From contig OZ024742.1 in assembly GCA_964016885.1 (NCBI GenBank), positions 330,026,001 through 330,090,000 of the forward strand: a stretch of 64,000 nucleotides of DNA, given 5' to 3'. The stretch's first letter is position 1. Each line of letters opens with the position of its first letter. Shown piece by piece: positions 12,394 to 16,082 of this stretch. Origin of the DNA: Eledone cirrhosa (taxonomy: Eukaryota). The position numbers were made by a program, and so were the translations under genes. The notes under the pieces are model-generated. The model had not been told where the DNA came from and ran no database searches. It was given only the letters and a program-made list of their open reading frames with translations.

Positions 12394-12790
12394 AGGAACG
12401 AGTAGGACCCCGACGGCTGAGCTCAAGCCGTTTCGACGGCTAATTCTGGAATGAATAAACATTTTTATCCTGGTATTTGAATACCCGAGTTCTCAGGGGG
12501 TAATTCCATATAGGGTAAATGTGATTGTCACAAGGATTGGTCAAAAGTTTGTTGTTGAGACATAATAATTCTATCATGGCAATTTGTTGAGGGAAGGAGT
12601 AGCTGAACCTGCCAGTAGAAGAAAGACGGAGAGGGGGTGGAGGAAACCTAGTCGTGCGTTGATAGTGCCAACTACAGCTGGGCATGAGACCATAGAAGAT
12701 ACTAGGAGGGGGAGGAAGTCGAAACAATAAGTAAAGCGATATGGGGTAAATATATAGAGAAATACCGAGAGTGTTAAAAAACAATTAAAT
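12394..12790 (-). mobile_element. Non-coding HHR-bearing repeat, called family B here
   Basis: Reverse-complement homolog of 15686-16082; partial copies at 16910-17114, 28870-29062, 39712-39845. Confidence 0.8.
12407..12501 (-). ncRNA. Type I hammerhead-like ribozyme with variant core CUGAGAA
   Basis: ACCCC CTGAGAA ..cgggta..TAGCCGTC GAAA CGGCT tgagctc AGCCG TC GGGGT: perfect helices I and III, GUC site. Confidence 0.72.
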
Positions 12791-13254
12791 GTAAAAAAAA
12801 AAATAAAAAAATTCTGGTTACTATATCCCAAGGACAGCTATCATGTCTCTCACTGGTACTGCTAGACTAAAGAAAGGTTTACTAGGTGGGACGGAATTAT
12901 AATGAGACCCTTTTAAGAGGTATACGTAAACAACCGAATATATCCTACGGTGACGGGTCAACAAGTGGGGGGCCAAAATACTAAAGAAACTACCACGAAA
13001 TAATCATTCAGAGTCCCGAGACCAGTACGAAATAAAGGATTCTACCCAAGGCACAAGGCCAGCAAACACCTAGTGCAAACAAAAATAAATAAACTAATAC
13101 GAAATAATAATTCAGAATTCCGAAAAAGAAAACTAATACTATCTCTAAAGGTGCTGCCACGATACAACAATTCTAGTGCAAACTACATAAATGCTCGTAC
13201 GAAGTATATGTAAAGTTTCATACGGAAAATAATATATATATCATATATATATAA

Positions 13255-13620
13255 TATATATTTATTATATACATATATAATCATATATATATATATATAC
13301 TTCTAATTATATATATATATGTATATATATATATATATATATATATATATATATATATATATATATATATATATATAAATATATATATAAATATATATAT
13401 ATATATATATATATATATATATATATATATATATATATATATATATATAAATATATATATATATATATATATATATATATATAAATATATATATGTATAT
13501 ATATATATATATATATAAATATATATATGTAAATATATATATATATATATATATATATATATATATATATATTTATATATATATATATATATATATATAT
13601 ATATATATATATATATATAT
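13255..13620. repeat. (TA)n microsatellite
   Basis: Seen directly. Confidence 0.95.
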
Positions 13621-13950
13621 GTCTGTATATGTATATGTTTGTTGAAAAAAGAAGTAAATGACATAGTCACTACATTAAAGTAATAGCGCAAGGTCTTCAA
13701 AATATTTTTAATTAAGCATCCAGTATGTTGCCAAATATACTATATATACATTCATGTATACATCGCTATTTCAGAGCACGAATTCTAATATATATATATA
13801 TATATATATGTATATATATATATATATATATAATATATGTGCATATATATATATATATATATATATATATATATATATATATATATATAAATATATATAT
13901 AAAATAAAGTTAAATAAAAGTCAAATGATTAAAATTTAGCTTCGTTTATT

Positions 13951-14005
13951 ACTGCTCTATATATTTCAGTGACAGCCATCTCTGGCTGTGACCTCTTCAG
14001 GCAGT
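13951..14005 (-). ncRNA. Type I HHR with mutated cleavage site (AGA)
   Basis: ACTGC CTGAAGA GGTCACAGCCA gaga TGGCTGTCACT GAAA tatata GA GCAGT. Confidence 0.7.
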
Positions 14006-14258
14006 TTGAATTAGTATGGTATAGAGAAGTACATATGTTGTTTAGGTGTATGATATTGTCAATACTCTGATATGCCCAGTTCCTTGTTGGGTTGTTAATT
14101 CACTGGGGAACTCCAGTTCCTTGTTGGGTTGTTAATTCACTGGGGAACTCCAGTACCCCAGTGAATTAACAACCCAACAAGGAACTGGGCATATCAGAGT
14201 ATTGACAATATCATACACCTAAACAACATATGTACTTGTCTATACCATATTAATTCAA

Positions 14259-14313
14259 ACTGCCTGAAGAGGTCACAGCCAAATATGTCTGTCACTGAAA
14301 TATATATAGCAGT
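14259..14313 (+). ncRNA. Type I hammerhead ribozyme
   Basis: ACTGC CTGAAGA ggtcacagcc..gtctgtcact GAAA TATATA TA GCAGT, followed by aataaa. Confidence 0.85.
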
Positions 14314-14514
14314 AATAAACGAAGCTAAATTTTAATCATTTGACTTTATTTAACTTTATTTTACACTACTCCGGAGTAACCAAACCAACCTGCGCACTTC
14401 GTCGAGTGCTCCAGCCTGCATACTGAGGTGTTGGTATACAACCAACATAAACTCAAAATCTAAATATATATATATATATATATATATATATATATATATA
14501 TATATATATATAAA

Positions 14515-15632
14515 TTAATAAAAATAAAGAATAAAAACCAAGAAGCAGCTCCTTATATTAATAAATTCATCATTTTACGATCGTTTCTAGGATATATATG
14601 TTTGTGTTGGTATGTATATCATATAGATCTATGTAACATTTTTTACAAACTATCAGAGGGAATTTGCATACATACATACATATATATGATGTCTTCAGAA
14701 ATAGTGATATTTGTTTATTGAAAAAAAAAAAAAAAATTTAATATAATAAGTCTGTTTGGGAACAGGTTTTGAATTGACCAATAGAAAGGTAGTAAGTGCT
14801 CAAGATGGTAGAATAGTAGTAATAGAACTTTAATTTAGGGGTAGAGGAAAGCAGAATTCAGTTTTGAATGGAAAGAGTATGATGAATGAAAAGATTATTT
14901 TAGGGATGAAAAATTAGTACATGAAAAATTAGTACATGAAAAATTAGTACATGAAAAATTGATGTTATAAAAGAATAATGCTAATGTAAATGTCTAAGGA
15001 GAATAACGTTTTACGATAAATGTGTTAGTTAAAAATATCAATCAAGTTTAAAATATAGGGAATTTACATCTATAAAAAGAAAATAAATTAATTAAATTGA
15101 CAGGTATATTTATATTCATAAATTTATATTAATTCATATAGATATGATAAATAAGAGTTACATGTAATTGAAGAGTGCTGTTAAAAGCGAAGGGAAAATA
15201 AAAAAAATAATTATTATCATTGGGAGGGGGGGGGGGGGGTAAATTTATTAGTGAGAAATAACAAATTTATATAGATTATAAGGAATATAGAATCATAATC
15301 TGAAATTAAAATAGTTTATATGTATACTTATTTGTATACATTTTAGGAAAAGATAGCTGTAAAAGGGACTTAAGATTATGCAGTTCATTAGTAGTAGAAT
15401 ATTAATTATAGGTTAACTAATTTTTTTTTTAAAAATGCTATAATTATTTCTAAAGTGTATATTAATTAGGTTTATAATATTTAAAAGTTCTCCTCAATTT
15501 ATGCTTACATGATATGATTAATTCCTGTCGTTTATTTAATAGGATATTCTTAGATTTCATTATTTCAAAAGGTTCCTGGGAACATAATCTACATTCATAT
15601 CTATTATCTTGATAAGGGGTGGCCCTTTTGAG
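14515..15632 (-). mobile_element. 5'-truncated Naiad-like PLE: EN tail, about 0.9 kb 3' UTR and HHR
   Basis: 15462-15632 minus translates LKRATPYQDNRYECRLCSQEPFEIMKSKNILLNKRQELIISCKHKLRRTFKYYKPN*; not in the ORF track. Confidence 0.8.
14567..14707 (-). ncRNA. Type I HHR with about 100-nt helix II insertion
   Basis: TCACTATTT CTGAAGA ... GAAA CGATCG TA AAATGATGA; helix I pairs 8 of 9; palindromic loop III. The base of helix II pairs poorly. Confidence 0.65.
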
Positions 15633-15685
15633 TCAAAATGGGGTAAATATATAGAAAGATAGCGAGTGTTAAAAAACAATTAAAT

Positions 15686-16082
15686 GTTTTTTAACACTCT
15701 CGATATTTTTCTATATATTTACCCTATATTGTTTTACTTATTGTTTCGACTTCCTCCCCCTCCCCCTCCCTAGTATCTTCTATGACCTCCTGCCCAGTTG
15801 TAGTTGGCACTATCAACGCACGACTGGGTTTCCTCCACCCCTCTCTCTCATTCTTCTACTGGCAGGTTCAGCTACCCCTTCCCTCCACAAATTGGCATGA
15901 TAGAATTATTATGTCTCAACAACAAACTTTTTACCAATCCTTGTGACAATCACTTTTAACATATATGGAATTACCCCCTGAGAAGCTCGGCTATTCATAT
16001 ACCAGGATAACAATTTTCATTTAGTCCAAAATTAGCCATCGAAACAGCTTGAGCTCAGCCGTCGGGGTCCTACTCGTTCCTA
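15686..16082 (+). mobile_element. Family B HHR repeat with short inverted cap 15638-15680
   Basis: Homologous to 12394-12790; ends ctcgttcc-tatata. Confidence 0.8.
15973..16068 (+). ncRNA. Type I hammerhead-like ribozyme with variant core CUGAGAA
   Basis: ACCCC CTGAGAA gctcGGCTA..TAGCCatc GAAA cagct tgagctc agccg TC GGGGT. Confidence 0.7.

What the first reader, a model, noticed from the sequence alone, without database searches (positions are those of the whole stretch)
12407..16068. Family-level variant hammerhead core CUGAGAA
Two diverged copies (12407-12501 minus, 15973-16068 plus) both have CTGAGAA instead of CTGANGA. They keep a perfect 5-bp helix I, a helix III with palindromic loop tGAGCTCa, GAAA and a GUC site. 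The core can be read as loss of N7 plus an extra A, or as G8 to A, which would break C3-G8. The family has seven fragments in this window, so it amplified with this core. It may be an uncatalogued active variant or a structural relic with another role.
Basis: partly seen in the sequence, partly recalled or inferred. Interest (0 to 1): 0.75.

Follow-up and report, generated by a model that had tools for sequence, protein, structure and literature searches.

The report
Mismatched hammerhead in Penelope-like retrotransposon
The motif is a hammerhead-shaped RNA in the end repeat of a very abundant jumping gene, in a subfamily of over 1,700 copies whose core has one mismatched pair that likely weakens self-cutting, and which apparently gave rise to younger copies with the pair restored, so it is a likely natural test of whether these elements need to cut their own RNA.

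Summary
The CTGAGAA core is real and typical of a subfamily: 1,609 exact copies against 10 with CTGANGA. It lies in the terminal repeat of a Hydra-type Penelope-like retrotransposon that inserts into (TA)n. No base is lost. Sister subfamilies keep the same 7-nt register with N7 = A, C, G or U, and most carry the published U3-A8 pair (5,282 U3-A8, 1,729 C3.A8, 59 G8). So this is a C3.A8 mismatch. Two trees put the C3.A8 copies between older and younger U3-A8 copies, which implies loss and regain of the pair. Truncated copies start at the predicted cut in 18 of 89 young U3 cases and 7 of 69 C3 cases (p 0.12); both arms do so in 16 of 89 against 2 of 69 (p 0.004, category chosen after seeing the data). 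Best reading: weakened, not dead, and not needed for spread. Cleavage is untested. Both window copies carry private lesions. The scan had already noted this mismatch elsewhere in this genome, and cut-site breaks in another genome.

The parts
15973..16068 (+). Copy B type I hammerhead motif: helix I 15973-15977 with 16064-16068; core C3-A9 15978-15984; G10.1 15985 with C11.1 16040; helix II 15988-15993 with 16033-16038; GAAA 16041-16044; helix III 16044-16049 with 16057-16062; predicted cut between 16063 and 16064
15978..15984 (+). CTGAGAA core, C3 (15978) opposite A8 (15983): mismatch; sister subfamilies have T at 15978
   Evidence: one search shows C>T at 15978 in 48% of X1 depth, with no change at 15983 and no core indel among the rows shown
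15676..16080 (+). 5'-truncated pseudo-LTR of the Penelope-like element carrying copy B, ending 17 nt past the predicted cut in a TA run
12407..12501 (-). Copy A hammerhead motif: core 12496-12490, G10.1 deleted, GAAA 12434-12431, predicted cut between 12412 and 12411
12395..13149 (-). Truncated element carrying copy A: pseudo-LTR 12395-12792 plus 3' UTR pieces at 12881-13006 and 13057-13149, ending in a TA run
16909..17116 (.). Head-to-head pair of 3' halves without the core; one arm ends at the short end, the other carries the longer tail
28866..29065 (.). Head-to-head pair of 3' halves without the core, flanks like an older subfamily
   Evidence: subfamily by eye
39679..39851 (+). 3' half with tail, flanks like the oldest (outgroup) family
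   Evidence: compared by eye

Best explanation
The motif is a type I hammerhead-shaped sequence in the pseudo-LTR of a Penelope-like retrotransposon, in a subfamily whose C3.A8 mismatch likely arose from the family's U3-A8 pair, likely lowers but may not abolish self-cleavage, and was apparently restored to U3-A8 in younger subfamilies. Shown: the element (RT plus C-terminal endonuclease, TA targets), the register, the copy numbers, the tree order and the 3' ends 17 or 97 nt past the predicted cut. Inferred: reverse transcription starts at two internal sites downstream of the ribozyme on uncut or religated RNA, so cleavage is not needed to make a copy; cleavage only sets the 5' end of some templates, which leaves copies that start at the first base after GUC. 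Predicted: C3 removes the 3-8 pair and favours a misfold in which CUGAG pairs with CUCAG.
For: Element: ORF of 717 aa from the first ATG in L079, downstream of and sense to the motif, with DKT, RWR, CxCx5C, CxxC and CxH motifs (compared by eye); direct and inverted pLTRs; tandem spacing about 3.53 kb. Census 5,282 / 1,729 / 59. Outgroup U3-A8. pLTR tree with positions 3, 7, 8 masked (103 of 186 rows): a 26-row mainly U3 clade (100/99) nested in a ladder of C3 copies; C3 as one clade rejected, p-AU 2.5e-48, group named after seeing the tree. Endonuclease-DNA tree (33 of 216 rows) gives the same order, young clade 94/92. Within-group distances 0.167, 0.127, 0.06, 0.016 for old U3, early C3, late C3, youngest U3. 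92 of 98 3' ends lie 12-26 or 85-110 nt past the cut, none closer than 16 nt, like the two RT start sites in PMC11167929, where ribozyme mutants did not affect insertion in vitro. Cut-site starts: U3 18 of 89, C3-marked 7 of 69; double-armed 16 of 89 against 2 of 69, p 0.004; both exceed 8 flanking positions (p 3e-11 and 0.004). Marker check: 32 of 33 full copies with that flank and tail marker are C3, none U3. Median pairing probability of helices II/III 0.11/0.08 in late C3 (n 73) against 0.72/0.73 in youngest U3 (n 17). In a pairwise mutant scan all changes in this region except the G-C swap had low activity (PMC9901934, passage).
Against: No cleavage assay. The plain difference at the cut is not significant (p 0.12 to 0.16), and a first pass with a faulty reference gave none (10 of 90 against 10 of 86). 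The double-arm class was defined after reading the lists; samples are the first 100 of 708 and of 1,261 matches, nearly all on one contig. Core and helices changed in 0 of 43 columns across the C3 groups and early revertants against 11 of 106 free columns, which is more constraint than a weak ribozyme needs, though copies were picked by motif. Misfolding also appears in U3 groups with G7 (0.16/0.18, n 4; 0.30/0.29, n 6). Covariation is weak: 3 pairs with two-sided change, reached by 82 of 500 shuffles. The same scan passage implies that U3-A8 itself was weak in that construct. Template switching between subfamilies could blur the trees.
Confidence: 0.62

Rival explanations
1. The C3.A8 motif is catalytically dead; the subfamily spread from uncut RNA, and its few cut-site starts come from cleavage in trans by U3-A8 RNA (helix I is identical and loop III is palindromic) or from non-catalytic breaks.
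For: Double-armed cut-site copies are rare in C3 (2 of 69). Single 3 or 8 mutants abolished activity in another Penelope-like ribozyme (C3G, G8C; PMC11167929). Predicted misfold.
Against: C3 cut-site starts still exceed neighbours (7 against 13 over 8 positions, p 0.004). No fixed change in 43 core and helix columns through the C3 phase.
Confidence: 0.16
2. C3.A8 is a fully working variant, through a protonated A.C wobble or help from the element's protein.
For: At least 1,729 copies over several successive subfamilies, including one with a 790-codon open frame (L088); fold conserved; the lizard ribozyme needed protein to cut.
Against: Fewer double-armed cut-site copies than U3; return to U3 in the youngest clade; C3-A8 not found in print.
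Confidence: 0.1
3. Neither form cuts in the animal: the fold is kept as a binding or start signal, and the breaks after GUC mark a transcription start or an RT stop.
For: No 3' ends at the cut; no RNA-seq ends at the cut for the lizard element; other break hot spots at -20, -14 and -7 are as strong in places.
Against: Those hot spots have microhomology between the arms (by eye), while cut-site junctions carry untemplated bases; the peak falls on the first base after GUC; it differs between subfamilies whose sequence at the site is nearly the same.
Confidence: 0.1
4. The core lost N7 and kept the extra base seen after A9 in many Penelope-type hammerheads (CUGA-GA-A-G).
For: The published consensus is CUGANGAH-G (PMC4209133 supplement), so the letters fit.
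Against: Position 7 varies as A, C, G, U in the same register; U3 sisters would then have U3.G8 with G8 free to become A, C or U; no inserted-base relative among the 10 CTGANGA hits.
Confidence: 0.02

Closest known systems
U3-A8 hammerheads: Schistosoma mansoni Cercyon PLE variant (Cervera and De la Pena 2014, PMC4209133) and natural U3-A8 cores (Perreault et al. 2011, PMC3088659)
   Same: Type I motif in the pseudo-LTR, short helix I, G10.1-C11.1, palindromic loop III, A at position 8.
   Different: Here one subfamily has C3 opposite A8; helix III is 5-6 bp; loop II is about 38 nt; no extra base after A9 but a 2x1 internal loop after G10.1-C11.1.
Hydra clade of Penelope-like elements (Craig et al. 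2021, PMC8557442)
   Same: C-terminal endonuclease, DKT, RW(K/R), CxCx5C linker, CxxC and CxH motifs, (TA)n insertion, inverted truncated copies.
   Different: All Hydra hammerheads in their File S2 have CTGANGA, short loop II and 3-4 bp helix III; this unit is about 3.5 kb against under about 3 kb; tail about 80 nt against the 30-40 nt described.
Poseidon element of Anolis (Frangieh et al. 2024, PMC11167929; author name recalled)
   Same: Two fixed 3' ends downstream of the ribozyme; copies made across the cut site.
   Different: Canonical C3-G8 core; no ends at the cut were found in its RNA data, while here genomic 5' breaks pile up at the cut.

Membership tests
Type I hammerhead ribozyme | Three helices around the core, ends in helix I | tested here: met
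   91.7% of cells paired on 14 rows, against 23-55% when slid; youngest U3 copy folds this way as its minimum
Type I hammerhead ribozyme | U4 G5 A6, A9, G12 A13 A14, A15.1-U16.1, H17 | tested here: met
   No majority change at these columns across 9 groups
Type I hammerhead ribozyme | Watson-Crick pair between positions 3 and 8 | tested here: not met
   C3.A8 in both window copies and 1,729 genome copies; met (U3-A8) in 5,282 sister copies
Type I hammerhead ribozyme | Compensatory changes in helices | tested here: inconclusive
   One clear G-C to A-U swap in helix II; 82 of 500 shuffles reach the pair count, 9 of 500 the score
Type I hammerhead ribozyme | Self-cleavage after NUH | not testable with these tools
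   Indirect only: 5' breaks at the predicted cut
Rfam hammerhead families | Score against a curated model | tested here: not met
   No hammerhead model at E up to 10 for copy B or for a young U3 copy
Penelope-like element, C-terminal endonuclease | Single ORF with RT then GIY-YIG-type endonuclease between pseudo-LTRs | tested here: met
   Layout and motifs read by eye; Pfam and PDB gave no match, so domain names rest on motifs
Penelope-like element, C-terminal endonuclease | Tandem and inverted copies, optional tail | tested here: met
Hydra clade | DKT, RWK-like, CxCx5C, CxxC, CxH motifs, no CCHH; (TA)n targets | tested here: met
   one search compared by eye
Hydra clade | Placement in an RT tree with reference elements | not tested
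   No tree with published Hydra proteins was built
Hydra clade | Canonical CUGANGA hammerhead | tested here: not met
   59 G8 copies against 7,011 A8 copies; published members are all canonical

The most novel reading that the evidence does not exclude
A natural C.A-mismatch hammerhead core still cuts in the animal at a reduced rate, and the genome records a retrotransposon lineage crossing a fitness valley (U-A to C.A to U-A) with a subfamily-by-subfamily readout of cleavage preserved as 5' break points.
Probability: 0.3. Interest if true: 0.72.

Novelty: new variant of a known kind. Interest (0 to 1): 0.5.

Why it matters
What hammerheads do in Penelope-like elements is open: Craig et al. 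2021 say the function is unclear and that they may be parasites, and the one in vitro system found them dispensable. This family offers near-identical natural ribozymes that differ at one core base, thousands of dated copies, and a genomic mark that may report cleavage. That makes the question directly testable. If C3.A8 cuts, descriptor searches that demand a 3-8 pair miss working motifs. If it does not, it shows that a Penelope-like lineage can amplify for a long time with a broken ribozyme while the fold stays conserved.

Tried and rejected
Rfam on the whole window listed no hammerhead among the 150 of 192 matches shown; local scans found none. Repeat finders were swamped by microsatellites. 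Pfam and PDB found nothing for the ORF. The first tree (157 rows) held unrelated flanks and was replaced. The first pair count had a mis-registered structure string and was redone. The first break count used a reference mutated at C17 and was redone; the first marker check failed and was redone. Single-strand folding z-scores were unremarkable in 4 of 5 sequences; copy A scored -2.3 in the misfold. No RNA holder listed. Contigs of three runs of one sample, kind not on record, confirmed only the C/T split at position 3. Changes along the lineage were not dated branch by branch; only present-day groups were compared. Literature: searches for CUGAGA, U7 deletion, G8A and C3-A8 or U3-A8 found no report of a natural C3.A8 or N7-less core, but Lunse et al. 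on Penelope-associated variants, Przybilski and Hammann 2007, Nelson and Uhlenbeck 2008, Martick and Scott 2006 and Scott et al. 2013 were not held, so measured rates for C3.A8 were not seen and absence from print is not established. Supplement file 1 of PMC4209133 could not be searched.

Full report
Observation. Seven fragments of the family lie in the window, 2 with the core and 5 that are 3' halves. Copy A has lost G10.1 and has a helix II change; copy B has two private G-to-A changes in helices II and III. Neither window copy is a good model of the subfamily.

It is a subfamily trait. In the 3.0-Gb host genome ATTACCCCCTGAGAA occurs 1,609 times (control 0) and ATTACCCCCTGANGA 10 times (control 5); 7 of those 10 are family copies with G8 and no added base. 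The 3' half of the motif has 51,777 exact pattern matches. An earlier scan note calls this genome an octopus; I did not check that.

The carrier. Larger loci show the motif in direct and inverted terminal repeats around an ORF with RT-like and endonuclease-like motifs, in the same sense. A young copy has 717 codons from the first ATG, about 190 nt past the predicted cut, and tandem units are about 3.53 kb apart. The motifs DKT, RWR, CxCx5C, CxxC and CxH and the (TA)n targets match the description of the Hydra clade (compared by eye). Pfam and PDB gave no match.

The register. Sister subfamilies read TTGAGAA, TTGAAAA, TTGACAA and TTGATAA before the same G10.1. Position 7 is the free base, so nothing is deleted. 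With matched patterns the genome holds 5,282 U3-A8, 1,729 C3.A8 and 59 G8 cores, 11 of the 59 being C3-G8 by eye. An older family with a different loop II has 150 matches; of the 100 listed, 98 have U3, 2 have A and none has C (by eye). U3-A8 is a published natural variant (PMC4209133; PMC3088659). The finding is therefore a C3.A8 mismatch on a U3-A8 background. Contigs of one independent or possibly the same sample show the same C/T split at position 3.

History. A tree of 330 nt of upstream repeat plus the motif, with positions 3, 7 and 8 masked (103 of 186 candidates; 83 dropped for short homology), is a ladder: old U3 copies, then successive C3 subfamilies, then a nested clade of 26 rows (100/99) that is U3 except for one row. 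Holding the 64 C3 rows together, three sporadic C3 rows left out, is rejected (p-AU 2.5e-48; group named after the tree was seen). A separate tree on endonuclease-coding DNA (33 of 216 rows), with outgroup rows at the base, gives the same order with weaker support. Within-group distances fall from 0.167 (old U3) to 0.127 (early C3), 0.06 (late C3) and 0.016 (youngest U3). I infer U3 to C3 to U3. G8 copies are scattered over the trees and look mostly like later point changes.

Constraint. Among nine present-day groups, majority letters differ in 25 of 39 loop II, 41 of 55 upstream and 8 of 12 downstream columns, but in 0 of 10 helix I, 2 of 12 helix II (one compensatory pair), 1 of 8 helix III (to G.U) and 1 of 13 core columns, the last from a two-row group picked for G8. 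Across early C3, late C3 and early revertants the figures are 0 of 43 against 11 of 106. Copies were found by motif, which favours conservation. Formal covariation is weak.

Folding. A young U3 copy folds as the three-way junction; three C3 sequences instead pair CUGAG with CUCAG or nearby. Median pairing of helices II and III is about 0.1 in both C3 groups and 0.7-0.9 in three U3 groups, but only 0.2-0.3 in two small U3 groups with G7. This is prediction, and age confounds it.

Ends. Of 98 copies, 54 end 12-26 nt and 38 end 85-110 nt past the predicted cut, with peaks at 17 and 97; none ends closer than 16 nt. Templates therefore ran through the cut site. This parallels the two internal RT start sites of the lizard element, whose ribozyme mutants inserted normally in vitro.

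A genomic test of cleavage, prompted by note e1-8643110. If the ribozyme sets the RNA 5' end, some copies should start at the first base after GUC. I took the first 100 truncated copies of each of two flank types (708 and 1,261 in all). The C-type flank with its tail marker goes with C3 in 32 of 33 full copies and with U3 in none. After dropping 11 and 17 indel or intact rows, 18 of 89 young U3 breaks and 10 of 83 C-flank breaks (7 of 69 with the marker) fall at the cut (p 0.12-0.16); with the next base included 25 of 89 against 9 of 69 (p 0.03); both arms of a palindrome start there in 16 of 89 against 2 of 69 (p 0.004). Both types exceed eight flanking positions. A first pass with a faulty reference showed no difference at the exact base, and the double-arm class was defined after I read the lists. 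The result suggests cleavage in U3 and less in C3; it does not prove either.

Mechanism, about 0.6. The element is transcribed through tandem repeats, its protein starts reverse transcription 17 or 97 nt past the ribozyme and inserts into (TA)n; cleavage trims the 5' end of some templates but is optional (inferred). C3 broke the 3-8 pair and favoured a misfold (predicted), the lineage kept amplifying (shown), and U3 returned (inferred).

Papers seen. PMC4209133: parts 1-2 of 4 of the text and parts 1-2 of 3 of supplement 2. PMC11167929: passages and the second part of the main text. PMC3088659: section 8 and passages. PMC8557442: passages, section 11, supplement parts 2-3 of 59. PMC9901934, PMC6765202, PMC7151607, PMC3884650: passages. 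Hammerhead numbering and the A.C wobble idea are recalled. Key papers on Penelope-associated variants and on 3-8 exchanges were not held, so a prior report of C3.A8 cannot be excluded.

Verdict. Real, subfamily-wide, and a new variant of a known kind: a mismatched state of a published U3-A8 hammerhead in a Hydra-type element, not a new core architecture. Interest 0.5.

Noticed in passing
window 1034-6117: Near-perfect inverted repeat (about 1.9-kb arms, 99.8% identical) between TA arrays, holding a 902-codon open frame at 4266-1561 (-) that looks like another Penelope-like element.
   Followed up: no
window 22302-22344 (-) and 24151-24193 (+): Two canonical CTGANGA minimal hammerhead-like motifs in head-to-head orientation beside a decayed Penelope-like ORF at 23938-23252.
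   Followed up: no
window 29286-29973, 63321-63980, 11489-11830, 15465-15632: Fragments of other, more distant relatives of this element's ORF (33-57% identity).
   Followed up: no
window 43425-51436: Large inverted duplication (85-90% identical) with ORFs resembling a non-LTR retrotransposon.
   Followed up: no
genome-wide, e.g. L093, L104, L113, L236: Most 3' halves sit in short head-to-head palindromes with one short-ended and one long-tailed arm; break hot spots at -20, -14 and -7 from the cut coincide with microhomology between the arms.
   Followed up: partly
L065-L090: The youngest subfamily has many near-identical copies with intact 784-codon frames, some in tandem arrays, and a G.U pair in helix III; it may still be active.
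   Followed up: partly
L001 (G000:C1266): A small contig carries a 100% identical copy of the window's copy B, probably an assembly duplicate.
   Followed up: no
L151-L180: A set of old copies with U3.G8 and distinct loop II flanks clusters in the first tree and may be a small subfamily with a wobble at the 3-8 pair.
   Followed up: partly
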